NCBI GenBank assembly: GCA_032249135.1
Contig: JAVVGL010000030.1
Coordinates: 1 to 23,172 of the forward strand
Reading direction: 5' to 3'
DNA: 23,172 nt
Source: Candidatus Calescibacterium sp.
GTDB taxonomy: Bacteria; Calescibacteriota; Calescibacteriia; Calescibacteriales; Calescibacteriaceae
Made by a program: the position numbers and the translations under genes. The notes beneath the pieces are model-generated. The model worked only from the letters and a program-made list of their open reading frames with translations, searched no databases and was not told the DNA's origin. Shown here piece after piece: positions 1-23,172 of the stretch. Every line of letters starts with the position of its first letter. The first letter of the stretch is position 1.

Positions 1-1118
1 TATTTTTCAAAAATTGGAATTCCCCACCCAGCGCTCAAAGATATAAAATACCTATCTTCTATTTTCTTCATATCAAAAAAGCTAAATCCTATCTTCACCG
101 CAAATTCAGGGGAAATTCCTATTCTTAATCCTGCTGAGTATTCAAAGTGTTTGTTGAAAAGATTACGAGCACCATATCCTCCACCCTCTCCCTCCTCTTG
201 CAGTTTCGCCTGTAATTTTTCAAAGTAAGGATTTCCATCTTGCCAATCAAAAGTTCCAATCTGCAAATACGGTCTTATACTATAAATAAGCTCTGAACCG
301 AAGACATGATAAGATAAAATTAAAAATCCTCCCCAACCGGATTTTTTAGATTCTAAATCTCTCAACAAAAATCCTTCAAGCAAAGCTATAAGTCCTCCTG
401 GGTTGTTATAAGATATGTTTCCTCCCATGATGAAATTTCGGACAAGAATTTGGGATCCATCTTTCTCTTGTATTCTAAAAGGATCATAGCCCAAAGACAC
501 ACCAACTTCTCCAAATTCTCTTTTTACAAAAAGCTTGCCGATGAAAGTTTTTTCTTTATCAAGATCCCAAAAAGGAGAAGCACCAAATTGTAAGTTCCCG
601 GTTCCAACATCTATAACATATCCCGGTTGAAACTCTCCTATTTCGGCAGAGCCTTCTGCTTCAAATCCTATTGAGTGAATAGGTAAAGGTCCTCCGAAAT
701 CCTCAAACTCTATTATAAATGGTCTTCTTATAACTGGCATAAGGTAAAGTCCGTGATGCCACTCTCTTGTGAAATAACCAAAGGGAGAGTGAAAGCGACC
801 TACCCTTAAAGTAAAAAGCTTATGGAAATTATAGCCCAAATAAAGTCTTTCCGGATAAGCCGCCTCTTCTTCAACCACAAGCTCAACATAACCTTCTGCT
901 CTGCCAAAACCCAAAGAAGATAGCAAGTTTATCTGACCTATGCGGAAGTTGATGAGTTTTTCATCTGAAAAGTAATCGCCACCCATCTCCCCGTATAGAT
1001 ACATAAAACCCCGAAGCTCTTGAGCCCAAACCGAACCCGCAAGACTAATCACCGAAAGAAAGAAAGAAAGAAAGAATGAATGAATGAATGAATGAATGAA
1101 TAGAAATCTGTTTCTCAT
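1..1118 (-). CDS. Outer-membrane beta-barrel / porin-like protein (about 372 aa; runs to the window edge, where the last two bases TA may begin the stop codon)
   Basis: Not in the ORF track; translated by hand. ATG at 1118 with SD GGAGGTG (1125-1131). Open to position 3: MRNRFLFIHSFIHSFFLSFFLSVISLAGSVWA-QELRGFMYLYGEMG...ERLYLGYNFHKLFTLRVGRFHSPFGYFTREWHHG...RPFIIEFEDFGGPLPIHSIG...YFISLSAGWGIPIFEK. Has a signal peptide, alternating amphipathic strands and an aromatic-rich C-terminal strand. Confidence 0.75.
   Translation of the reverse strand, partial: MRNRFLFIHSFIHSFFLSFFLSVISLAGSVWAQELRGFMYLYGEMGGDYFSDEKLINFRIGQINLLSSLGFGRAEGYVELVVEEEAAYPERLYLGYNFHKLFTLRVGRFHSPFGYFTREWHHGLYLMPVIRRPFIIEFEDFGGPLPIHSIGFEAEGSAEIGEFQPGYVIDVGTGNLQFGASPFWDLDKEKTFIGKLFVKREFGEVGVSLGYDPFRIQEKDGSQILVRNFIMGGNISYNNPGGLIALLEGFLLRDLESKKSGWGGFLILSYHVFGSELIYSIRPYLQIGTFDWQDGNPYFEKLQAKLQEEGEGGGYGARNLFNKHFEYSAGLRIGISPEFAVKIGFSFFDMKKIEDRYFISLSAGWGIPIFEK
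1054..1101. repeat. Compound tetranucleotide SSR (GAAA)5(GAAT)7, 48 bp, inside the porin signal-peptide coding region
   Basis: Counted directly; reads (ATTC)7(TTTC)5 on the coding strand, currently in frame. Confidence 0.95.
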
Positions 1119-13601: not shown

Positions 13602-15023
13602 TTATTTTGAGTTCAGAATTTTTTTCAAGTTCTCAAAACCACCGGAAAAGCTATACGCTTTAAAACCTAATTTACGATAGTACTTTGCTAATCCCTTACT
13701 TGTAAAACCTCTTTCACATACAAAAACAACAATAGAATCTTTGTATTTTTCTTCATCAAATTCATTTATGCTAATTGAATTAGGAAATTTTTGTGGGAGT
13801 AAGCTGACAACCACAGAATTTGTAGGAATATAATTTATAACATACTCATCTTCTTTCAGTATTTCTTTTATCTTCTCTTCACTTTCATCTAAATCTAACT
13901 CAAAAGTTTCATCAACCAACTTATCTAAAATTCTGACATCAATTTTTTGAATTTCGGAGAAAAACTCGGTAAGATCTGCTCTTGATGTCACAGGACCTGT
14001 AGCAATTCCGCACAACTCTTCAACATTCAAAGATAAATCATAAGTTCCAATACTCTGACTTAAAAAAATAATTTCTTGCTTATCATAGCTTATGAGAGGT
14101 CTTATGATGGGTAATGATATACCAAATTCTGCTGCTCGAATGTTTCTTATAGTTTGACTTGTTGCCTGAAAAATAGCTTCACCTGTGATCAGAGCTTCAT
14201 GACCAAACTTTAAAGCTATTTTTTCACCCGCAAGATACATAAATCTTCTCAAAGCAACCTGTCTTATTTCATTTGGAATCTTTAAAAGTATCTCTTTTAC
14301 TATTTCAGAAAATCTCATAACAAAAAACCGAGGTTTATATCCGTAAAACCAGTTTTCATATAAAGACTTTGCAACAGCCCACACAGGGAAAACTTCGCTC
14401 AAACCCCCAAAAGCGAAGTGAAGAAAATCAACCTTACAACCTCTCTTTGCAACAAGATAAGAAGCCACAGGAGAATCAAATCCACCAGAAAATAAACTCA
14501 AAACAAGATCACCAGAGCCTATGGGCAATCCACCGGGTCCCAGTATTTTCTCAGAAAAAATATATGCTCTGTTGTCTCTTATTTCAACATTTATTTCTAA
14601 ATCCGGGTTTTTCAGATCAACTTTTAGGGCATACGGTCTGAGTTTTGCACCAACCACAATCTCAACATCTCTTGAAGTAAAATTATGATTTCCGCTCCTT
14701 TGACATCTTACAGCAAATGTTTTCCCTTTAACCTCATTTTTAAAAATTTTCTCAACTTTGTTTGCAAGGTCATCTAAATCAGTAAATTCAAAAACCTCGC
14801 ACTCGGAAAAGCTACTAATTCCAAATATTCTTTTGAACAAAGATGGGTCTATATCATCTCCCTGAACATATATTCTTGCAGGTTCGTGAAAAACTTTTGC
14901 ATTTTTTCCATGCTTTTTGAGCGCAGACTTTATGTTCCTGACAACAAGACTTTCAAAATGAAATCTTGATCCTCTCCTCCTATATGTAATATCACTTGTA
15001 AGTCTTATGAGATATGTCTTCAC
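13602..15023 (-). CDS. thiI: tRNA 4-thiouridine synthase with THUMP, PP-loop and C-terminal rhodanese-like domain
   Basis: TFAVRCQRSGNHNFTS (THUMP), GPGGLPIG, SLFSGGFDSPVA (PP-loop), TGEAIFQATSQT, RPLISYDKQEII, EELCG, C-terminal VFVCERG. Confidence 0.93.
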   Translation of the reverse strand: MKTYLIRLTSDITYRRRGSRFHFESLVVRNIKSALKKHGKNAKVFHEPARIYVQGDDIDPSLFKRIFGISSFSECEVFEFTDLDDLANKVEKIFKNEVKGKTFAVRCQRSGNHNFTSRDVEIVVGAKLRPYALKVDLKNPDLEINVEIRDNRAYIFSEKILGPGGLPIGSGDLVLSLFSGGFDSPVASYLVAKRGCKVDFLHFAFGGLSEVFPVWAVAKSLYENWFYGYKPRFFVMRFSEIVKEILLKIPNEIRQVALRRFMYLAGEKIALKFGHEALITGEAIFQATSQTIRNIRAAEFGISLPIIRPLISYDKQEIIFLSQSIGTYDLSLNVEELCGIATGPVTSRADLTEFFSEIQKIDVRILDKLVDETFELDLDESEEKIKEILKEDEYVINYIPTNSVVVSLLPQKFPNSISINEFDEEKYKDSIVVFVCERGFTSKGLAKYYRKLGFKAYSFSGGFENLKKILNSK

Positions 15024-15132: not shown

Positions 15133-17799
15133 TTATACCTTTATTTCTCTTGAAATCCCATTTGCTATAACGAGCATATTAGCAAAGTTTTCAAAATCTT
15201 CAATTTGCTCAAAACGAGGTAAAATTTCTCTTTCAAAATAATCTTTTAACCTTTGATTTCCTCCTTCTTTTCTCATAAATATCCTTTTTAGCTCATTTTT
15301 CAAAATCTCTTTTAAATTTGATAAGTTCTGATTCTTATCTTTGTCATATAACTCTTCAACTACCTCAAGATATTGATAGGGAAATCTACTTGAAATCTCG
15401 TTATTTTTAAACTTGCAAATCAAATCTTCAATAAAACCTATTAAATCCCACTTTCCTCCACATTCTTTCTCCCCTCCACTATGAGTTAAAAACACAAGAC
15501 AAAATCCATTTTTACCATAAACATTTTTTGCTCTTTTTTCTGCTTCATTTACTTTCTTTAAAGCTAAATAAAGCGGATATTTGTGATGAACAATTAAAAT
15601 TCCTGCACTCATGGAAGCTTTTTGACTTAAAATTTCCTTAAATTTCTCCTGCAATTTATAAGCACATCTCAAAACCTCTTCCAGTGGTAAAAATGCCAAA
15701 ACATCATCTCCTCCTGCATAAACAAGCTTTCCATAATGATCATCTTCTACAATCTTTCTAACTTCTTCAAGAGCAAATTGAGATAACTTTCTTGAAAAAG
15801 CTTGGTGAATTGATGGAGAAGTCGGATGTCTTGAACACAAAATTTTTTGAAGTTCATTTCTATCTCTTTCCTCTGAAAATCGTATTAGAGCATCTATTAC
15901 TTTTCCGTGAATTGTATCTTTTATTTTGAGATTAAACTCTCCTTTCAACCATTTTCCGATGTTATCTCCATCCATTTGTAAAATCGCATAGTATCCTGAA
16001 GGATTGATTTGATCCAAAAGTTTTAAAATATTCTGAAAGTCTTGGCTACTAACACTAACTCCATACTCCTTTATAAAATAGTCTTCTTTATAAGTTTCTT
16101 TCATAAGAAATTCTCCATCAATATTATAAAGAGGGTCATTTTTTAATTTTGAAACAGAAATAGAGGAAGGAAGATTTAATTTTTGCCTAAGCTTATCAAA
16201 TTCTTGCTGAAAATTCTTCTTTACACTGTTGTCTAACCTCCTCTTTTCTCCAATGCTTGCCATTTCAGAAGTTGATGGAAATTTTATTTCATCAGATAAA
16301 CCAAATTCATCTTTTATGATTTTCGGAAACAATCTTTTTGTAAGACAAACTCCACAAAGTCTCTCACCTTCTTTTAAAGAAACCTTACTTGATAACTTTT
16401 CCCATATCTCATCATTTTTTGCCTTGCAATTATCCCAGTCTTTTACTTTGTCATAAAACGATTTCCATTTAGAAATATCAGTAGCAAACCACAAAACCTC
16501 AAATTCACCGCAAAGATGACATTTTTCTCCTGGCTGATCAATCTGTCCAAAATCTTTTACACTTTTTCTTGCTCCAAGAAGCTTTTCAGTGAGTTCTAAA
16601 ATTAATGAATAAGCACTTCCAACATTAGCAGGCTTATAATAAGGATGATTAACTACCTGCTCAATTGTTTTATAAAGCTCATTTTTATCAGAAAAAAGTT
16701 CCTTATAATCACTTAAAGCATCATCAGGTAAAATTCCTCTCTTACTCCACGGCATTATAACCCAATAAACTTGAAAGTATGAGGAAAGATGATTTTCTAT
16801 ATCGTTTTGGAGACATGAGTTTTTGGAAAAGTCCTTTATTTCTTCATATACTTTTTGAGCAAAATTTTTCAATTTATTTACAAATGAATTTTGGCATTCT
16901 TCTGCCCATTTTTTCCCATTATCCTCATAAGGGATAACTGCTAAAAATCTATTTGGTAAATTGGCAATTGTGAGTTTTTCTTCTGAATAAGCATTATCAA
17001 TAAACTTTCTAAACCAACTTTCGTTTCCAAAATGTCTATTAAGTAGGTCTCTAAAAGTTTGATTATTAAATTTTAATTCACAAATCCACCTATCAAAAAG
17101 AGGTTGTCCGAGTAGATTTGGAAATATAATAACATCAGGTCCAAATTTTTCAACCAAAGGTTTCATACTTTCCCAAATCAAATAAGAAAGCATGTAGCTT
17201 GCTGACCATAAATCAGATGTTTTTCTTGCTTTTGAAATAAAACTTTGAACAGGTCCAATTGTAAAAAGCAAAAATGCAGGATTTGGTAAAGCTGAAACAA
17301 TAGCTGATGTTTGAACCAGATGGTCATAAATAGAATGGTTTGGTGCCCTTGAATCAGCAGGATGTTTATTTATTTCGGGGAAAATTTCAGGGTAAAATCG
17401 CCACAAAAATAAAAAGATAAATTTTGCTCTTTCTTCCTCATTTGAAAAACTTAATTTTCCTAATTTATCAAATAAATTCAGAACTTTGTTTTCATCAGGA
17501 GATTGAATTTTTTCTTTCCTTTCAGAGAAAATATCTATAAATTCGCATTCGTCATAATTTACTTGCGATTCGGTTTCAAATTGCTTTTCTTTGCTTTGAT
17601 CTTGAAATTGAGGTTTTACTATTATTCTACTTTGAGCTGACGCGAGTTGGTCAGCAAGACTTACATTATCATCTTCTAAGATGTCGTTTGGGAAAATTTT
17701 TTCAAAAAGCTTTTTAGCTTCACTTTTGTGAGTCGCAATAGATTTTATCTTATACGGCGGATCATGAAGTAGAGCTTTCAATTTAAGCTTCCAGTCCAT
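15133..17799 (-). CDS. cas10: Type III-B CRISPR large subunit Cas10/Cmr2 (888 aa)
   Basis: N-terminal ALLHDPP (HD domain), PADSRAPNHSIYDHL, IGPVQSFISKARKTSDLWSASYMLS, Zn finger CHLCG...CGVC, FPSTSEMA, Palm motifs MDGDNIG and LVYAGGDDVLA. Start at ATG 17799 after SD GGGGGTG. Confidence 0.96.
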   Translation of the reverse strand: MDWKLKLKALLHDPPYKIKSIATHKSEAKKLFEKIFPNDILEDDNVSLADQLASAQSRIIVKPQFQDQSKEKQFETESQVNYDECEFIDIFSERKEKIQSPDENKVLNLFDKLGKLSFSNEEERAKFIFLFLWRFYPEIFPEINKHPADSRAPNHSIYDHLVQTSAIVSALPNPAFLLFTIGPVQSFISKARKTSDLWSASYMLSYLIWESMKPLVEKFGPDVIIFPNLLGQPLFDRWICELKFNNQTFRDLLNRHFGNESWFRKFIDNAYSEEKLTIANLPNRFLAVIPYEDNGKKWAEECQNSFVNKLKNFAQKVYEEIKDFSKNSCLQNDIENHLSSYFQVYWVIMPWSKRGILPDDALSDYKELFSDKNELYKTIEQVVNHPYYKPANVGSAYSLILELTEKLLGARKSVKDFGQIDQPGEKCHLCGEFEVLWFATDISKWKSFYDKVKDWDNCKAKNDEIWEKLSSKVSLKEGERLCGVCLTKRLFPKIIKDEFGLSDEIKFPSTSEMASIGEKRRLDNSVKKNFQQEFDKLRQKLNLPSSISVSKLKNDPLYNIDGEFLMKETYKEDYFIKEYGVSVSSQDFQNILKLLDQINPSGYYAILQMDGDNIGKWLKGEFNLKIKDTIHGKVIDALIRFSEERDRNELQKILCSRHPTSPSIHQAFSRKLSQFALEEVRKIVEDDHYGKLVYAGGDDVLAFLPLEEVLRCAYKLQEKFKEILSQKASMSAGILIVHHKYPLYLALKKVNEAEKRAKNVYGKNGFCLVFLTHSGGEKECGGKWDLIGFIEDLICKFKNNEISSRFPYQYLEVVEELYDKDKNQNLSNLKEILKNELKRIFMRKEGGNQRLKDYFEREILPRFEQIEDFENFANMLVIANGISREIKV

Positions 17800-17813
17800 A
17801 TTGGCACCCCCTT

Positions 17814-19166
17814 TCAAATCTGCTGCAAATCTTGAATAATTAATTGCTTAATTTTATCTATGCTTTGATCACGGATTTTTATATATATCTCATCTTTCTT
17901 TCCATTGCAAATATCTTTTTTCAACTCAATGGAATTATATTCAAAACCTGCATGAGCAAAAAAATTTCTTTTATCAATTTCGTCACGAAAACTACCAAAC
18001 TTGATTTTTGCGTAAATTTGATATTCTTCACTCAACTTATATTTTAACTCCGAAACTTCTTTTATCTCAACATCAATTCTATTGCATTCTATGGCGAGTT
18101 TTCCAAAAACTTTACCTTTCAGCTCCTCAATCTCAGATAAAGGAATTTCATAAGATTTTCTAAATCCAAGCTTCCCTAATACAGAACTGATAAGATAGGC
18201 TTTTGAAAAGTTTGCAAAACTTTCACGAAATTCAAGCTTTCTTAAAATTTGCACTTTCTCTCCTCTATCATCAATCTGAATATTTTTTTCAAATTCATCT
18301 GAAATCTTTTCAATTTTTGTTCTGAGATCTTCTGGATCTGGAATATAACTTAATAGCGCAACCGGTAAAGCAAAGTAAAATGAACCAAGAAATAACAAAA
18401 TTTCATCTCTGTATTCAGAATACTTTCTATTATTCCCAAAAATTTCTTTGAAAAAATCATTGATTTCTTTTCCTACCTTTTTCTTTTCTTTATCTTCTTC
18501 AAGCCCATTATAAGGCTCTATTGGTCTTCTATCATCTTTATATACGGAGATCTTTGGAAGAATCTTGGTTTCCTCAATAATATTTATATTCAGCAAATCC
18601 GCACCTTCTCTAACAAAAGGATCTGAGTTTAAAACTTTCAAATTTACACTATAAAAATAAGACAAGATTTCAAGAATTTCTCTTAAAGCTCTGTAAGTCA
18701 ATATTGTTATCCAATTTATTCCATGAGTTGCATCAAAAACCACTTCAATTTCATGACTTACTTCCAATTCAGCAAATAAAAAAGAAAACCCTTTAAAAAC
18801 ATCATAATAAAAATCTTTTGCATTCCCTAAAAACTTTGTTTTAATAAATTCACCAAATCCATAAGATATTATGACTTTATCTGGAACAAAACCCAACTCT
18901 TTTCGGCAGAAATCAGAAACTTTCCGTTGAATTTCAGTCTTTATGTATGAATAATTACTCAGCCAATTATGTGAATAATTATCAATACCATTTTTCAATA
19001 AAGTATCAGCTAATGTATCAAGGACAACAATAACTATTTTGTCAGATTTTTCAATTTCTTTTATAAGAGCTAACGGATCTTTTGATTTTTTTGTCTTCCC
19101 TGAGTAGGTATATTTTACCTCTCTCCACTCAAATGGATTACCCCAAGGAGCAATCAAAAGTTTCAT
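17814..19166 (-). CDS. csx1: CRISPR-associated CARF-HEPN ribonuclease Csx1 (450 aa)
   Basis: MKLLIAPWGNPFEW..V.Y, VLDTLA, CARF motif FDATHGINW, NSDP, HEPN R-x4-H motif RNFFAHAG. Start placed at ATG 19166, just after the cmr6 stop. Confidence 0.92.
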   Translation of the reverse strand: MKLLIAPWGNPFEWREVKYTYSGKTKKSKDPLALIKEIEKSDKIVIVVLDTLADTLLKNGIDNYSHNWLSNYSYIKTEIQRKVSDFCRKELGFVPDKVIISYGFGEFIKTKFLGNAKDFYYDVFKGFSFLFAELEVSHEIEVVFDATHGINWITILTYRALREILEILSYFYSVNLKVLNSDPFVREGADLLNINIIEETKILPKISVYKDDRRPIEPYNGLEEDKEKKKVGKEINDFFKEIFGNNRKYSEYRDEILLFLGSFYFALPVALLSYIPDPEDLRTKIEKISDEFEKNIQIDDRGEKVQILRKLEFRESFANFSKAYLISSVLGKLGFRKSYEIPLSEIEELKGKVFGKLAIECNRIDVEIKEVSELKYKLSEEYQIYAKIKFGSFRDEIDKRNFFAHAGFEYNSIELKKDICNGKKDEIYIKIRDQSIDKIKQLIIQDLQQI

Positions 19167-19173
19167 GGCAAAT

Positions 19174-20112
19174 CTAACTATCAAAAATTCCATAACCAAG
19201 CCTCGTTTTTGCCCCAACTCCAAATTCTTTTAAGGCTTTCTTAACCCAACCTCTAACAATTCCAGACAATTCAGAAGAATTACCTAACCAATTCTTTACA
19301 ATTTTCTTTACTTCCTCAGGGAAACCACCATTTCCTGAAATCTCCTTTGACCTGAACCTATCAAATAAAACATTGAAACAAAAAGTAATGCCTTTTTTAA
19401 CAGTTAAAAATATAATTGGATTTGGATTTTCCCAATCTCCTGGAACTTGATTTTTAGTATAATATCCTTGATAATGAGGTGTCATAACATCAAGCTCAAA
19501 AATTTGTTCGTTATTCTGAATTTCAGGAAAGGCGTCAAGAAAAACTAAAAGCCCCTTGAAATTTTGAGCTCCAAATAAGAGTTTATGTTTTAAAATATCT
19601 TCACTATCAGAACCTGAAAGTTCATCATCGTAAAGTTGTTTTTGAAGTTTTTCTATGTCTTTATCTGATTTTTTATTTTGGTTTTCAGCAATTTCCCAAA
19701 AGCTAACCATTCTAACTACACCCTTTAAAGCACTTGCGGGAATATAAGGAATTCCAAAAATGTGATGTAAAGTCAGAGAAGTTTCAAGAACATGCCCTGC
19801 TCCAAGACCTACAACAAGACGAGAGGAGGTTTTGAGTTTTAAGCATTTTTCTCTTTCATTTTTAAATATATTTTCATATCCACACTTTTCTAAATTCTCT
19901 ACTTGATTTTGTATCCTTTTCTTGAAATTTTCAATAACGTTTGGAGCTTCGTTTATAGAGTTTAAAAAGTCTCTTTTATTTTTGGTGTTTATTACAATAT
20001 CTGGTTTTATAAGCTTTTGCAAAGCAAGTGAAATGTTATCGCATTTTGAGTTATTTAATTTAGGTTGATTGCTAAGATAGAGGTAATTTATTAGATCATT
20101 CCAGCTTTTCAT
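19174..20112 (-). CDS. cmr6: Type III-B RAMP subunit Cmr6
   Basis: SRLVVGLGAGHVLETSLTLHHIFGIPYIPASALKG, FLDAFP, DVMTPHY, PNPIIFLTV, Gly loop GVGAKTRLGYG; SD GGGAGG. Confidence 0.95.
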   Translation of the reverse strand: MKSWNDLINYLYLSNQPKLNNSKCDNISLALQKLIKPDIVINTKNKRDFLNSINEAPNVIENFKKRIQNQVENLEKCGYENIFKNEREKCLKLKTSSRLVVGLGAGHVLETSLTLHHIFGIPYIPASALKGVVRMVSFWEIAENQNKKSDKDIEKLQKQLYDDELSGSDSEDILKHKLLFGAQNFKGLLVFLDAFPEIQNNEQIFELDVMTPHYQGYYTKNQVPGDWENPNPIIFLTVKKGITFCFNVLFDRFRSKEISGNGGFPEEVKKIVKNWLGNSSELSGIVRGWVKKALKEFGVGAKTRLGYGIFDS

Positions 20113-20238: not shown

Positions 20239-20460
20239 TTAAAAGTTCTTTTGCTTCCACTTTTTTCTAATTCCATTTATAGCAAAAGCATATTTTATAT
20301 CATACTCTATATCTTCAAGGGGATCAAATTGAAATTTGTTCAAGGATTTAGCAAGCTTATATAACTCATCAAAAATTTTGAAATTCTTTTTATAATCAAC
20401 TTTTTCCTTTTTCAAAAGATCTCTTTCAAAACTCTCCCAAACTTTTTTATTCTTTATCAT
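20239..20460 (-). CDS. Small hypothetical protein (73 aa) inside the cmr operon
   Basis: ATG overlaps the cmr5 stop (ATGA). MIKNKKVWESFERDLLKKEK..NFKIFDELY..AKSL..DPLEDIEYDIKYA resembles, from memory, small helical proteins encoded just upstream of nucleotidyltransferase genes. Confidence 0.7.
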   Translation of the reverse strand: MIKNKKVWESFERDLLKKEKVDYKKNFKIFDELYKLAKSLNKFQFDPLEDIEYDIKYAFAINGIRKKWKQKNF

Positions 20461-21155
20461 TCCTTTATTTCAACCTCAACTATTCTTTTTAACCAATTAG
20501 CAATTGCTAAAACTTCCATAGTCGCAAGACGAAGTGTTTGAAAGTCAGTTTCTAATAAAAATTCAAGTAGAAGACTACCTTCTTTATTATTTTTCCAATC
20601 CAAATAAGGCTTAAAACCTGTAACTTCCAAAATTTCGCAAATATCAGTATAAATTTGACCTCTATCATCTCCTTTTGATTTATAAAAGGCAAGTGTAGGA
20701 ATTAAACCATTAGAAATAATCATTTGGGGCAATCTTTTAGCATGTGAGGAATAGTCAGAGGCATAGTCATATTTTGAAAAATCAAAAACAAAATTAGAAT
20801 AGATTTGTGAGATTTGATTTTTAACATTTCGGTTATTTAAATCTTTTCCTTCTTTAAAAAATTCAGATAATTCTCGTTTTGCATTATTTTCATTTTGATT
20901 CAAGGTCCGTAATATATTTCTTAATTGGTTATTGTTCCTTTCATTCATAAACCAAGAAACGAAATCCTTAAACATCTCCAACTTTATTCCATCATAGAAA
21001 CGATATTTATGGAAATCGTCAAAATTGTTAGATTTTAAGTTAAATTGATTTTTAACATCCTTTAATTCAAACCACTTTCCACCTTTTGCCAACTTCAACC
21101 TTTCAACACATTTTAGACAATAAAAAGCCCTTTCTTGTTCAAGTGTTTTTCTCAT
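20457..21155 (-). CDS. cmr5: Type III-B small subunit Cmr5, enlarged (232 aa) by an internal insertion
   Basis: Cmr5 N-terminal motif MRKTLEQERAFY, core YSSHAKRLPQMIISNGLIPTLAFYKSKG and C-terminal LRLATMEVLAIANWLKR; located after cmr4 with an ATGA overlap. Confidence 0.9.
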   Translation of the reverse strand: MRKTLEQERAFYCLKCVERLKLAKGGKWFELKDVKNQFNLKSNNFDDFHKYRFYDGIKLEMFKDFVSWFMNERNNNQLRNILRTLNQNENNAKRELSEFFKEGKDLNNRNVKNQISQIYSNFVFDFSKYDYASDYSSHAKRLPQMIISNGLIPTLAFYKSKGDDRGQIYTDICEILEVTGFKPYLDWKNNKEGSLLLEFLLETDFQTLRLATMEVLAIANWLKRIVEVEIKE

Positions 21156-22045
21156 GTTTGCCCTCCATTAAAAACTTTAACCCTTACAAAACCTTTTCCC
21201 GTTGTCTCATCTCCGCCAAGTTGAAGAATGGAATTATCAGAAAGTAAAGAATTTATTTCTGAAAATACTTTTTGAGCATCCATATTGGAACCTGGCTTAA
21301 ATGAATCTTTGAAAAATAAAATTGAATAAAAAACACTTTCAGAAGGAATTAATTCCTCTGAAAATAAAGCCCCTTCTTTAACAGTTCCTTTTGTCTGGTC
21401 TATTCTTATTCTTGTTCTTATTTCAACTGCATAATTTACAAAATCTTTGAAAACATTATCAGAGACAATAGCAAGATGATTTCTAAGATCTGTAGTTAAA
21501 TCATTTTGATGGACAAAATTTTTTAAGAAATCAGCCAATTCTTTGACTTCATTTTTAACTTCGGCTTTAAAAACAAACTCTTCAAGAGCAACTTGATTAT
21601 TATCTATCCTCAAAGCACTGCTATTTGAAACTAAAACTTTTTTATCATCTGAAACATCAAAAATTTGAACACTTAAGTTAATTCCAACTGCCTTTAAATC
21701 CTCTTTAAATCTCCTCAAAACAAATGGACAGGTAATCCACGCAAAAACTCCTTTTACAGACCTAACAGGATAAAGCAAAATTTTAGCATCAGTTATACTT
21801 ATACAACTTGCAAAATCTGAGCCACCATCTTCTGGACCAAAAATTGTCTCAACTTTATCTTTATCATTCCACACTCTTGAAGCTAAATCTCTTATTACTC
21901 CTTTTATTCCGCTTGACCAAAGAACTGGGAAAGAAGTATGTCTTTCTCTTTGAATAGGTAAATCTACATATGAGACGCTTTGACCCGAACCCATATGTAT
22001 AGGAGTTTCTGCATAGAATGTCAAAACTGCACTTTTCTTATACAT
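21152..22045 (-). CDS. cmr4: Type III-B backbone RNase subunit Cmr4
   Basis: AETPIHMGSG, VDLPIQRERHT (catalytic Asp), SSGIKG, DAKILLYPVRS, WITCP, TRIRID, GALFSEE, QLGGDETTGKG. Confidence 0.96.
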   Translation of the reverse strand: MYKKSAVLTFYAETPIHMGSGQSVSYVDLPIQRERHTSFPVLWSSGIKGVIRDLASRVWNDKDKVETIFGPEDGGSDFASCISITDAKILLYPVRSVKGVFAWITCPFVLRRFKEDLKAVGINLSVQIFDVSDDKKVLVSNSSALRIDNNQVALEEFVFKAEVKNEVKELADFLKNFVHQNDLTTDLRNHLAIVSDNVFKDFVNYAVEIRTRIRIDQTKGTVKEGALFSEELIPSESVFYSILFFKDSFKPGSNMDAQKVFSEINSLLSDNSILQLGGDETTGKGFVRVKVFNGGQT

Positions 22046-22047
22046 TT

Positions 22048-23172
22048 TTATTGCCCTCCCTCCTTTTTAATTAAGACTAAATTAGTTCCTATAAATTCTT
22101 GTTTCCCTTTCGGCTCATTAAAATAATAATCATTTTGACTTTCATTTTTACAAAGAAAATTTGGATTATTTATTATTATTGTTTTATCAATTTGACTTTC
22201 AAGCCAAAGAACTGTTCCGGGAGCAAAAGCTCTTTTTGTCTTTCTTCCCAACTTTGCAGAATTTATTCCAATAATCTCATAACTCCCAAAGCAAGCAGAA
22301 TATATTTCAAAACCATTTATTTGAGGAAGCTTTCCCACATCAAAAACTCCATAAGTCAAAAACAAAACTAAAATTCTATCTTTTCTCTTTAATTCAATTT
22401 TCTCTGGAACTTTTAGCTCATTTCTAATCCATTCCTTAAAATCATTCTTTTGGATTTCATAACTTACATTTTTCATTTCACCTCCGAGCTTTAAAACTTT
22501 TGGCTCATTACTGAAAAATTCAAAGATTTTTTCTTCATCATCTAAACCACACTTTTTAAGTTCCCCATTAGAGAAATCAAATTCTACCCAAAACACAAAT
22601 TTTATATCTTCTTTTAATCTTAAAAACTCAATTCTATAAAGTGCATCCTCTCTACCACCGACTGAATAAAGAGAAGGCTCTACCTTAATTCCAATTCTTG
22701 GCTCATTCTCAAAAATATCTTTGTACTGCAAGATATCTTCTTTTTTTATTTCTTGATTATCTAACCATTTTTTAAGACCATCAGTAGAAATAAATCCTTC
22801 AAATTGCTCAACTTCTTCATCTCCCGAATAAACTGGGAGATTTTTGATTACGTTTGGTTTATTCGTATTATCAGATTTGAAAAGGTTTAATTTGCTCTCA
22901 TCAATAGGTTTTACAGTGAAAAATTTATCTTTCTCTTTTTTCTTTTTTTCTCCATATATATTTTGAGGTTTTGGAAAGTAGATTTTATCTCCTTTTGAGA
23001 TGAACGGACCATAAACAGATTTTAGAATTCCGGAAATATCTATATTTTTAAATTGATAGATTTTTGAGCATATAGCACTTGCAAAAGTATTGGGATGTGG
23101 TGGAAAAGCAGAAACAACAACATCGCCTCTATTGAAAGGTCTGCCCGAACCAAAAAACAAAACATCATAAGG
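22048..23172 (-). CDS. cmr3: Type III-B subunit Cmr3 (5' end lies beyond the window)
   Basis: Frame is open to the window edge: PYDVLFFGSGRPFN...FPPHPNTFASA, GPF, EPRIGI, LYRIEFLRL, LKLGGE, AFAPGTV. Confidence 0.92.
   Translation of the reverse strand, partial: PYDVLFFGSGRPFNRGDVVVSAFPPHPNTFASAICSKIYQFKNIDISGILKSVYGPFISKGDKIYFPKPQNIYGEKKKKEKDKFFTVKPIDESKLNLFKSDNTNKPNVIKNLPVYSGDEEVEQFEGFISTDGLKKWLDNQEIKKEDILQYKDIFENEPRIGIKVEPSLYSVGGREDALYRIEFLRLKEDIKFVFWVEFDFSNGELKKCGLDDEEKIFEFFSNEPKVLKLGGEMKNVSYEIQKNDFKEWIRNELKVPEKIELKRKDRILVLFLTYGVFDVGKLPQINGFEIYSACFGSYEIIGINSAKLGRKTKRAFAPGTVLWLESQIDKTIIINNPNFLCKNESQNDYYFNEPKGKQEFIGTNLVLIKKEGGQ

What the first reader, a model, noticed from the sequence alone, without database searches (positions are those of the whole stretch)
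20766..21092. Cmr5 small subunit carrying a ~105-110-aa unknown inserted domain
Seen: the Cmr5 first helix (MRKTLEQERAFYCLKCVERLK) is separated from the conserved Y...LPQMI..NGL core by residues ~22-130 (LAKGGKWFELKDVKNQF...HKYRFYDGIK...FKDFVSWFMNERNN...IYSNFVFDFSKYD). The insert is in frame and rich in aromatics and Asn/Lys, consistent with a folded helical domain. Established: Cmr5/Cas11 is normally a small subunit (roughly 110-170 aa) with only a short linker here, present in several copies along the target-RNA groove. Inference: the complex would display multiple copies of an extra domain, which could bind nucleic acid, dock an effector (Csx1 or the adjacent 73-aa protein) or shield against anti-CRISPRs. 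This would be an undescribed III-B variant.
Basis: partly seen in the sequence, partly recalled or inferred. Interest (0 to 1): 0.72.

Follow-up and report, generated by a model that had tools for sequence, protein, structure and literature searches.

The report
Cmr5 small subunit with nested domain
A CRISPR type III-B small subunit (Cmr5) here carries a real, well-folded extra domain of about 110 residues with no recognisable relatives, shared by a small group of hot-environment bacteria and of unknown role.

Summary
Window 20457-21155 (-) encodes a 232-aa Cmr5/Cas11. Helix 1 (res 1-21) and the core (res 132-232) together make a complete Cmr5 fold. Residues 22-131 (nt 20763-21092) are a true nested insertion.

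The insert is not disordered: AlphaFold2 gives pLDDT 95.7 in the whole protein and 93.2 alone. It is kept in about 59 of 76 homologue clusters (37-98% identity) from several thermophile lineages. It is under purifying selection (dN/dS 0.21-0.36 against 0.19 for the core). One nested clade has lost it cleanly.

It has no detectable relative. A profile search of 1.84 billion proteins hit only long Cmr5s. No solved or viral fold matched (best Z 4.3), and it is not a copy of the core.

No gene tracks it. cmr1 is present, including in a contig identical to the window. The 73-aa neighbour also follows short Cmr5s and usually pairs with a DUF6036 nucleotidyltransferase.

The library searches found no paper describing it. 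My best reading is a rigid accessory domain on each small subunit, next to the Cmr4/target-RNA face, that modulates the complex. The mechanism is inferred. It is a new variant of a known kind, of moderate interest.

The parts
20457..21155 (-). cmr5L: 232-aa Cmr5/Cas11 small subunit with a nested domain (includes the stop codon)
   Evidence: ORF. PF09701 85.6 bits and TIGR01881 78.7 bits. Fold match to solved Cmr5s, Z 13.3-16.3.
21093..21155 (-). Cmr5 helix alpha-1 (res 1-21)
   Evidence: Aligns with the N-terminal helix of short Cmr5s. Helix 5-23 in the model. dN/dS 0.11.
20763..21092 (-). Nested insert domain (res 22-131): beta-hairpin plus five helices. The N and C segments are conserved; the middle (res 69-112) varies in length.
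   Evidence: Alignments. AF2 pLDDT 93.2, pTM 0.86 when folded alone. Profile search hits only long Cmr5s. No fold match. dN/dS 0.21 / 0.36 / 0.23 for the N, middle and C segments.
20460..20762 (-). Cmr5 core helices (res 132-232), including the nearly invariant Y135, S137, K140, R141 and the SNGLIPTLAFYKSK block
   Evidence: Pfam and TIGRFAM matches. PDB sequence matches to 4gkf, 9arw, 2oeb and 2zop. Conservation.
21152..22045 (-). cmr4 (297 aa), overlapping the cmr5L start by 4 nt
   Evidence: TIGR02580 281.5 bits.
22048..23172 (-). cmr3, cut at its 5' end by the contig end
   Evidence: TIGR01888 151.8 bits. The full 381-aa form and an upstream cmr1 are seen in the identical contig L033.
20239..20460 (-). 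p73: 73-aa helical protein overlapping the cmr5L stop by 4 nt. Here it is an orphan of a p73 + DUF6036 nucleotidyltransferase cassette.
   Evidence: No family hit. Homologues follow both long and short cmr5. The downstream partner in relatives is DUF6036/DUF2204/AbiEii-like.
19174..20112 (-). cmr6
   Evidence: TIGR01898 219.6 bits.
17814..19223 (-). csx1 (CARF-HEPN effector). The listed TTG start overlaps cmr6; the true start is probably later.
   Evidence: TIGR01897 243.3 bits, with Csx1_CARF and Csx1_HEPN domains.
15133..17817 (-). cas10/cmr2
   Evidence: TIGR02577 380.9 bits.

Best explanation
Shown: cmr5L is a functional-looking Cas11/Cmr5 of an otherwise canonical type III-B operon (cmr1-cmr3-cmr4-cmr5-[p73]-cmr6-csx1-cas10). 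An autonomous domain of about 110 aa with no known fold match is nested between helix 1 and helix 2. It packs rigidly on the Cmr5 bundle, is under purifying selection, arose within one Cmr5 subclade and was later lost cleanly at least once.

Inferred: Cmr5 is present in about three copies per Cmr complex, so each complex would carry about three copies of the domain. The domain ends nine residues before K140. K140 is the counterpart of A. fulgidus Cmr5 E40, which sits at the Cmr4 cleavage site next to the target RNA. The domain therefore leaves the bundle at the end that faces Cmr4 and the target.

Most likely role: a built-in accessory module that acts inside the complex. It would buttress or extend the small-subunit filament along the target-RNA groove, through contacts with the neighbouring Cmr5, Cmr4 or the RNA backbone. 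That would tune target holding, cleavage and Cas10 activation, rather than recruit a separately encoded partner. It is modulatory rather than essential, since sister lineages work without it in the same locus architecture.
For: Family and fold:
- PF09701 and TIGR01881 score above their cut-offs on res 125-232.
- Solved Cmr5s match over model residues 1/2..231/232 with Z 13.3-16.3.

Folded and rigid:
- Whole-protein pLDDT is 95.7 and pTM 0.91, with 0 residues below 50.
- The insert alone gives pLDDT 93.2 and pTM 0.86.

Conserved:
- By my count of lengths and coverage, about 59 of 76 clusters are long (191-273 aa, 37-98% identity).
- 7 of 31 genome loci and 33 metagenome loci carry the insert.
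- Invariant or near-invariant insert positions among 55 long rows: G26, K27, L31, G56, Y119, Y131.

Selection (12 non-overlapping pairs):
- dN/dS is 0.21 for res 22-68, 0.36 for res 69-112 and 0.23 for res 113-131.
- It is 0.19 for the core and 0.11 for helix 1.

Modularity:
- On the core-only tree the long/short label needs 2 changes.
- Three short proteins (P0057, P0058, P0060) are nested in a long clade with 100/99 support.
- P0054 (long) and P0057 (short) share 22 of 24 residues in helix 1 and 77% in the core. They differ by the insert.

No dedicated partner gene:
- Long and short loci share the same gene sets: Cmr1, 3, 4 and 6, Csx1, Cas10 and often Csx3/Crn3.

Position:
- The ungapped alignment of query 132-162 to 2oeb 32-62 puts Af E40 opposite K140.
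- Passages of the Cmr-beta preprint 10.1101/2020.06.24.163345 place E40 of the chimeric-structure Cmr5 near the 2'-OH next to the scissile phosphate.
- One search lists 3x1l as carrying the 2oeb sequence.

Complex prediction (2 x Cmr4 + Cmr5L): weak support.
- Score 0.59, best control 0.00.
- The mark was reached by 116 of 157 solved complexes and 2 of 215 mismatched pairs. At 0.60 or under it was reached by only 18 of those 157 and by both mismatches that passed.
- The runs agree in at least 92% of contacts, and the partner's pLDDT is at least 88.
- Cmr4-Cmr5 complexes are solved, so this may be memory. No contacts were given.
Against: No coordinates or contacts were available, so where the insert sits in the assembled complex is inferred from one sequence mapping only.

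The complex prediction was only weak support and did not locate the insert.

The insert's net charge is near neutral and inconsistent in sign (median +1, range -6 to +6, n = 55). This does not favour direct RNA binding.

The middle third varies in length (0 to about 90 residues) and is low in complexity. That part may be only a spacer.

Clean loss in one clade with no visible change in locus composition shows the domain is dispensable in some settings.

No experimental data exist for any member.
Confidence: 0.45

Rival explanations
1. Cis-encoded shield. The three or so copies of the domain coat the small-subunit side of the complex and block anti-CRISPR proteins or other inhibitors sterically. 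This would do in cis what the separate Cmr7 subunit was speculated to do in Sulfolobus Cmr-beta.
For: Cmr7 dimers decorate Cmr5 and other subunits in Cmr-beta. They modulate activity and were speculated to occlude anti-CRISPRs (passages of 10.1101/2020.06.24.163345). The insert has no homologues outside Cmr5. It has a variable, indel-rich middle segment with the highest dN/dS of the protein (0.36). It is gained and lost among close relatives, as expected for arms-race features.
Against: dN/dS of 0.36 is still purifying, and no sign of positive selection was seen at this coarse level. No anti-CRISPR against these systems is known to me. The domain covers only one subunit type. This rests on analogy only.
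Confidence: 0.15
2. Docking platform. The domain recruits a separately encoded factor (Csx1, Csx3/Crn3, p73 or a host protein) to the effector complex.
For: A rigid, conserved surface domain in several copies would be a plausible binding site. csx1 and, in most relatives, csx3 lie in the same operon. p73 overlaps the cmr5L stop codon by 4 nt.
Against: No gene co-varies with the insert. Csx1, Csx3 and Cmr1 occur with both long and short Cmr5. p73 follows 13 of 35 long and 6 of 22 short cmr5 genes. p73 is normally paired with a DUF6036/AbiEii-like nucleotidyltransferase. Csx1-type effectors are known to act through diffusible cyclic oligoadenylate, not by docking (established knowledge, recalled).
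Confidence: 0.1
3. Dedicated target-RNA clamp. The domain closes over or extends the target-RNA groove and binds RNA directly, raising affinity or changing cleavage and release.
For: The insert leaves the bundle next to the nearly invariant Y135-S137-K140-R141 segment, whose Af counterpart lies at the cleavage site. K27, K58 and K112 are conserved in 83-89% of long proteins. In this sample the cores of long proteins carry less positive charge than those of short ones (median +1, n = 55, against +4, n = 13), which could mean charge was relocated.
Against: The insert's net charge ranges from -6 to +6. No nucleic-acid-binding fold was recognised. The core-charge contrast is confounded by phylogeny and weak in the closest comparison: P0054 +1 against P0057/58/60 at +4/+3/+2, while long P0045 is also +4.
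Confidence: 0.15
4. Tolerated passenger. The insertion landed in a permissive loop and persists without contributing to immunity.
For: It was lost cleanly in one clade with the operon otherwise unchanged. The middle is variable. Cmr5 itself was reported as not essential for Cmr function in vitro (statement in PMC3737334).
Against: dN/dS of 0.21-0.36 over 12 independent pairs, with the N and C segments as constrained as the core. It is retained across 37-98% identity and several phyla. The confident, coevolution-supported fold packs on the core (pTM 0.91).
Confidence: 0.1

Closest known systems
Canonical Cmr5 (Cas11 of type III-B): T. thermophilus 2ZOP, DtCmr 9ARW chain F, A. fulgidus 2OEB/3X1L, P. 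furiosus 4GKF
   Same: The helical-bundle fold is the same (Z 16.3, 15.0, 14.3 and 13.3). So are the Pfam and TIGRFAM family, the conserved Y..K/R and SNGL motifs and the operon position between cmr4 and cmr6.
   Different: Those proteins are 113-169 aa with a short helix 1-helix 2 linker. Here about 110 extra residues form a separate domain at that point. None of the solved Cmr5s has it.
Csa5 (type I-A small subunit) with its nested beta-domain
   Same: It is a precedent for a domain inserted within a CRISPR small-subunit helical bundle. That insertion varies in length (20-67 residues) among homologues (PMC3737334, abstract and passages).
   Different: It belongs to a different small-subunit family, which that paper says has no structural relation to Cmr5. 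Its insertion point differs (alpha-4/alpha-6). It is a beta-strand domain with minimal conservation. The insert here is mostly helical and has well-conserved N and C segments.
Cmr7 decoration of Sulfolobus Cmr-beta
   Same: It adds protein mass in many copies along the Cmr4/Cmr5 filaments of a III-B complex and modulates activity (10.1101/2020.06.24.163345, passages).
   Different: Cmr7 is a separate, disulfide-linked dimeric subunit found in Sulfolobales. Here the extra mass is part of the Cmr5 polypeptide. No sequence or fold relation was found.
Cse2 (type I-E small subunit), a two-domain Cas11
   Same: It is a small subunit made of a Cmr5-like helical domain plus a second helical domain (PMC3737334).
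   Different: The Cse2 domains are in tandem and not nested. The insert shows no profile similarity to the Cmr5 core (hhalign probability 0.2%), and no Cse2 or Csa5 chain appeared among its top fold matches.

Membership tests
Cmr5 / Cas11 of type III-B (PF09701, TIGR01881) | Sequence match to the curated family models above their cut-offs | tested here: met
   PF09701: 85.6 bits against a cut-off of 21 (res 125-227). TIGR01881: 78.7 bits against 27.9 (res 131-232)..
Cmr5 / Cas11 of type III-B (PF09701, TIGR01881) | All-helical Cmr5 bundle fold, including the N-terminal helix | tested here: met
   2zop_A: Z 16.3, rmsd 1.6, 110 of 113 aligned over model 2..231. 9arw_F: Z 15.0. 2oeb_A: Z 14.3. 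4gkf_B: Z 13.3. All, on a model with pLDDT 95.7.
Cmr5 / Cas11 of type III-B (PF09701, TIGR01881) | Encoded within a cmr operon with cas10/cmr2, cmr3, cmr4, cmr6 and cmr1 | tested here: met
   cmr3, cmr4, cmr6, csx1 and cas10 are in the window. cmr1 lies upstream of cmr3 in the 100%-identical contig L033. It was not found in the window's own 87%-complete assembly, whose contig ends inside cmr3.
Cmr5 / Cas11 of type III-B (PF09701, TIGR01881) | Small size (about 110-170 aa) with a short linker between helix 1 and helix 2 | tested here: not met
   232 aa, with 110 residues between helix 1 and helix 2 where short relatives have 1-9, or 26 in one. This is the variant feature. It does not remove the protein from the family, because the fold and motifs are intact.
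Cmr5 / Cas11 of type III-B (PF09701, TIGR01881) | Assembles in several copies along the Cmr4 backbone facing the target RNA | tested here: inconclusive
   Prediction of 2 x Cmr4 + Cmr5L gave weak support: score 0.59, best control 0.00. The mark was reached by 116 of 157 solved complexes and 2 of 215 mismatches, but at 0.60 or under by only 18 of 157 and both passing mismatches. Runs agree in at least 92% of contacts and the partner's pLDDT is at least 88. This may be memory of solved Cmr complexes, and no contacts were given. It needs purification or cryo-EM.
Any known domain family for the insert (res 22-131) | Sequence or fold similarity to a described family | tested here: inconclusive
   Pfam and NCBIfam gave only sub-threshold hits over the insert (NPA, P8_CR, Coat_F, FliT). 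The profile search of 1.84 billion representatives gave 3 hits, all long Cmr5s matched at res 22-131. VIA-align against 48,161 chains gave a best Z of 4.3 and none at 5 or above. Foldseek gave 0 PDB hits at E <= 10. BFVD gave a best E of 6.5. The ESM Atlas gave no usable hit. A missing match does not prove a new fold.

The most novel reading that the evidence does not exclude
The nested domain is a new functional module of type III effectors. Three copies would form a lid or rail over the target-RNA groove, next to the Cmr4 active sites, and would gate target capture and release, and so the duration of Cas10 signalling. Or they would serve as a built-in anti-anti-CRISPR shield. Either way, small subunits would be evolvable regulatory scaffolds and not passive spacers. 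Natural plus/minus-insert sister pairs make this directly testable.
Probability: 0.2. Interest if true: 0.7.

Novelty: new variant of a known kind. Interest (0 to 1): 0.5.

Why it matters
Cas11 small subunits are usually treated as minimal helical spacers that line the target strand. Here a subclade has acquired, kept under selection and once discarded a rigid domain with no detectable relatives, at the end of the bundle next to the RNA-cleavage site.

If the domain changes target holding, cleavage timing or cOA signalling, or protects the complex, it would show a new way of tuning type III immunity. It could also offer a handle for engineering thermostable type III diagnostic complexes.

Natural near-isogenic pairs with and without the insert (for example P0054 and P0057) make the experiment simple. 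If the domain proves inert, it is a clean example of domain insertion and loss in a multi-copy complex subunit.

Tried and rejected
1. Insert as a replacement for a missing Cmr1: rejected. Cmr1 (TIGR01894) occurs in loci with long and with short Cmr5, and upstream of cmr3 in the identical contig L033. The L033 ORF itself missed TIGR01894. It is cut at its N-terminus by the contig end, but aligns at 42% identity (E 5e-64) with a Cmr1 that passes the model.

2. Insert as an internal duplication of the Cmr5 bundle: hhalign of insert against core gave probability 0.2%. The Z 3.7 match of the insert to 9arw_F is at noise level.

3. Insert borrowed from another protein family or from phages: the profile search found only long Cmr5s. 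PDB and BFVD fold searches were empty, and the ESM Atlas had no usable hit.

4. p73 as an insert-specific partner: rejected by co-occurrence and by its pairing with the DUF6036 nucleotidyltransferase.

5. Correlation of the insert with Cmr4 or Cmr1 length: I compared ORF lengths by eye and saw no pattern. I ran no formal test.

6. The metagenome scan with the insert-only alignment A4 failed for lack of a conserved stretch. I repeated it with A5.

7. The complex prediction did not give contacts, so it could not place the insert.

8. The search for 'DtCmr' returned only unrelated papers, so I could not read the paper behind the closest solved Cmr5 (9arw).

9. Earlier findings of this scan: nothing by place or by sequence.

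10. A short DNA motif search in the window for the cmr1 region found nothing, as expected, because the contig ends in cmr3.
Full report
**Observation**

The window is a whole 23,172-bp contig (C30) of a 2.1-Mb, 34% GC, 87%-complete assembly. On the minus strand it carries the following genes:

- cmr3, 22048-23172, cut by the contig end
- cmr4, 21152-22045
- a 232-aa Cmr5, 20457-21155
- a 73-aa ORF (p73), 20239-20460
- cmr6, 19174-20112
- csx1, 17814-19223
- cas10/cmr2, 15133-17817

The Cmr5 models cover only the C-terminal part of the 232-aa protein. PF09701 matches res 125-227 to profile positions 15-117 of 119. TIGR01881 matches res 131-232.

In alignments with short Cmr5s helix 1 (res 1-21) and the Y135...LPQMIISNGL core flank a block that the short proteins replace by 1-9 residues, or 26 in one.

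The AlphaFold2 model of the whole protein (68-row alignment; pLDDT 95.7, pTM 0.91) superposes on solved Cmr5s over model residues 1/2 to 231/232:

| Chain | Z | rmsd | Aligned |
|---|---|---|---|
| 2zop_A | 16.3 | 1.6 | 110 of 113 |
| 9arw_F | 15.0 | | |
| 2oeb_A | 14.3 | | |
| 4gkf_B | 13.3 | | |

The block is therefore a true nested insertion. I delimit it as res 22-131 (nt 20763-21092).

**Is it a real domain?**

It is confidently folded. In the whole protein no residue is below pLDDT 50. Folded alone with a 49-row alignment it gives pLDDT 93.2 and pTM 0.86, as a short beta-hairpin followed by five helices. The high pTM of the whole protein indicates that it packs rigidly on the Cmr5 bundle.

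It is conserved. Of 76 homologue clusters, by my count of lengths and coverage:

- about 59 are long (191-273 aa, 37-98% identity, mostly 98-100% coverage)
- 15 are short (127-141 aa, matching only the core at 49-70%)
- 2 are fragments or unclear (P0039, P0042)

Seven of 31 loci from species-representative genomes carry a long form. Their record titles are Ca. Calescibacterium nevadense, an unnamed bacterium, two WOR-3, Kryptonia, Omnitrophota and a Nitrospirae MAG. One search also names Sulfurihydrogenibium and WOR-3. A metagenome scan confirmed 33 further insert-bearing loci. In the window's own genus, 3 of 4 genomes searched (G000 included) hold a long form.

Conservation within the insert is uneven. 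The N-terminal part (L22-A23-K24-x-G26-K27-W28...L31...L40...G56-x-K58) and the C-terminal part (K112...Y119...D130-Y131) are conserved. The middle (about res 69-112) varies from almost nothing to about 90 residues.

Codon analysis on 12 non-overlapping pairs gives the following dN/dS values:

| Region | dN/dS |
|---|---|
| helix 1 | 0.11 |
| res 22-68 | 0.21 |
| res 69-112 | 0.36 |
| res 113-131 | 0.23 |
| core | 0.19 |

A first pass over 46 non-independent pairs gave medians of 0.23 for the insert and 0.14 for the core. The insert is under purifying selection, and its ends are about as constrained as the core.

**Origin and modularity**

I built a maximum-likelihood tree of helix 1 plus core only. 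It had 68 rows: 67 of the 76 clusters plus the window. I left out P0005, P0006, P0007, P0016, P0027, P0067 and P0073 as redundant, and P0039 and P0042 as fragments.

The long/short label needs two changes on this tree. Ten short proteins form one starred clade. Three short proteins (P0057, P0058, P0060) are nested inside a long clade as sister to the long P0054 (100/99 support).

P0054 and P0057 share 22 of 24 residues in helix 1 and 77% of the core, and differ by the insert. Since Cmr5s in general are short, the simplest history is one gain and at least one clean loss. The root was not determined.

The insert has no detectable relatives:

- A profile of eight inserts, searched against 1.84 billion representative proteins, found three proteins. 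All are long Cmr5s matched at res 22-131.
- VIA-align against 48,161 PDB chains gave a best Z of 4.3, with none at 5 or above.
- Foldseek found nothing in the PDB at E <= 10 and nothing meaningful in BFVD (best E 6.5).
- The ESM Atlas gave no usable hit.
- It is not a repeat of the Cmr5 core (hhalign probability 0.2%).

**Context**

Long and short Cmr5 genes sit in the same kinds of operon. Typical orders are cmr1-cmr3-cmr4-cmr5-(p73-NTase)-cmr6-(csx3)-csx1-cas10 and cmr3-cmr4-cmr1-cmr5-cmr6....

*cmr1.* Cmr1 was not found in the window's own assembly, and the contig ends in cmr3. However, metagenome contig L033 is 100% identical in all shared proteins and has a Cmr1 gene directly upstream of cmr3. 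That gene is N-terminally cut by its own contig end. It is 42% identical (E 5e-64) to a Cmr1 that passes TIGR01894.

Cmr1-like genes were found in 22 of 40 long-Cmr5 loci and 15 of 24 short-Cmr5 loci. No locus with at least 900 nt upstream of a complete cmr3 lacked one. That 'testable' class was defined partly by finding Cmr1, so it only shows there is no counter-example.

*p73.* It follows 13 of 35 long and 6 of 22 short cmr5 genes that have enough downstream DNA. In relatives it is followed by a roughly 185-aa DUF6036/DUF2204/AbiEii-like nucleotidyltransferase. In the window only p73 remains. I found no gene that tracks the insert.

**How it probably works**

*Established for Cmr complexes.* Passages of 10.1101/2020.06.24.163345 give a Cmr4(n+1)Cmr5(n) arrangement, with four Cmr4 and three Cmr5 in Cmr-beta. 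Cmr5 residues lie at the Cmr4 active sites and hold the target strand. E40 of the Cmr5 in the chimeric crystal structure lies close to the 2'-OH next to the scissile phosphate.

*Mapped here.* The Cmr5 in that structure (3x1l) has the 2oeb sequence. The ungapped HMMER alignment of query 132-162 with 2oeb 32-62 puts E40 opposite K140, which is invariant among the long forms. The insert therefore ends nine residues before a residue at the cleavage site.

*Inference.* The domain leaves the bundle at its Cmr4/target-facing end, and about three copies would line that side of the complex.

*My best reading* (confidence 0.45) is a built-in accessory module acting within the complex. It would buttress the small-subunit filament or extend the groove, and so tune target holding, cleavage and Cas10 activation. 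It would be modulatory and not essential, given the natural loss.

*Rivals:*

- a cis-encoded shield by analogy with Cmr7 (0.15)
- a dedicated RNA clamp (0.15)
- a docking site for another protein (0.10)
- a tolerated passenger (0.10)

*Evidence bearing on these:*

- The near-neutral and inconsistent net charge of the insert (median +1, range -6 to +6, n = 55) argues against a dedicated RNA-binding domain.
- The lack of a co-varying gene argues against docking.
- The dN/dS values argue against a passenger.
- No positive selection was visible at the coarse level tested.

A prediction of 2 x Cmr4 + Cmr5L gave only weak support:

- The score was 0.59 and the best control 0.00.
- The mark was reached by 116 of 157 solved complexes and 2 of 215 mismatched pairs. 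At 0.60 or under it was reached by only 18 of the 157 and by both passing mismatches.
- The runs agree in at least 92% of contacts, and the partner's pLDDT is at least 88.
- Solved Cmr4-Cmr5 complexes exist, so the pass may be memory.
- No contacts were reported, so the prediction does not place the insert.

**Comparison with what is known**

The protein is a member of the Cmr5/Cas11 family by sequence, fold and context. The one family habit it breaks is small size with a short helix 1-helix 2 linker.

The nearest precedent for a nested domain in a small subunit is Csa5 of type I-A. [quoted passage not shown] It is a different family, site and fold.

The nearest functional analogy is Cmr7, a separate subunit decorating Cmr-beta.

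I ran five full-text searches and found no description of an insert-bearing Cmr5:

- 'Cmr5' + 'insertion'
- 'DtCmr'
- 'Cmr5', 'Cas11', 'small subunit', 'extra domain'
- 'Cmr5', 'Cmr4', 'cryo-EM', 'target RNA', 'helix'
- 'Cmr5' with domain-insertion phrases

For these I saw listings and abstracts only, apart from the two papers read in passages. Subscription-only papers, and the paper behind 9arw, were not seen. Databases label these proteins simply as Cmr5.

**Verdict**

It is a genuine, folded, selected and undescribed nested domain in a Cas11 subunit. It is not linked to the absence of cmr1 or to the 73-aa neighbour, and its function is still inferred. It is a new variant of a known kind, of moderate interest (0.5).

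Noticed in passing
window 20239-20460 (-); L002:1145-1889, L015:10375-11113, L021:3383-4127, L035, L037, L039: In many relatives, with long and with short Cmr5, p73 is the first gene of a two-gene cassette. The second gene is a roughly 185-aa DUF6036/DUF2204/AbiEii-like nucleotidyltransferase, inserted between cmr5 and cmr6. The window keeps only p73, whose start overlaps the cmr5 stop by 4 nt. This may be a toxin-antitoxin or Abi-like module riding in the cmr operon, with p73 here an orphan.
   Followed up: partly
L003:8969-19848 and L059:8909-19753 (also G002:C29): One locus holds a Cmr1 - long Cmr5 - Crn1-like ring nuclease set directly upstream of a complete cas10-cmr3-cmr4-short cmr5 (107 aa)-cmr1-cmr6-csx1 operon. 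Long and short Cmr5, and two Cmr1s, thus coexist. This is either a remnant of a second module or a set of alternative subunits.
   Followed up: no
window 23172 (contig end) and L033:3-992: The window's contig ends inside cmr3, and no Cmr1 was found in the 87%-complete assembly. An identical metagenome contig shows cmr1 immediately upstream and itself ends inside cmr1. Both assemblies break in this region. No CRISPR array was seen in the window.
   Followed up: partly
window 19174-19223 (cmr6/csx1 junction); L002:2946-3275, L037, L039, L042 and others: Most relatives have a roughly 108-aa Csx3/Crn3 ring nuclease gene between cmr6 and csx1. The window and its closest relatives (L033-L035) have none, and cmr6 abuts csx1. 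The listed TTG start of csx1 overlaps cmr6 by 50 nt. Homologue alignments begin near residue 17-20, so the true start is probably later.
   Followed up: no
L010:981-1759, L014:1092-2778, L037:268-650: MNT/HEPN (MntA/HepT-like) pairs are embedded inside cmr operons of relatives. In L014 the Cmr1 ORF runs into an MntA-like C-terminal region (434 aa).
   Followed up: no
L007:1-16073: A WOR-3 contig carries two cmr modules in tandem: cas10-cmr1-cmr3-cmr4, then cmr3-cmr4-cmr1-long cmr5-cmr6-csx3-csx1-cas10. Unassigned ORFs of 99, 322 and 153 aa lie between them.
   Followed up: no
alignment A2: The Cmr5 cores of long proteins carry less net positive charge (median +1, n = 55) than those of the short proteins sampled (median +4, n = 13). 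The contrast is confounded by phylogeny and weak in the closest long/short comparison.
   Followed up: partly
window 13602-15023 (-): A ThiI-type tRNA 4-thiouridine sulfurtransferase gene (THUMP + ThiI + rhodanese) lies directly downstream of cas10. It marks the end of the CRISPR module.
   Followed up: no
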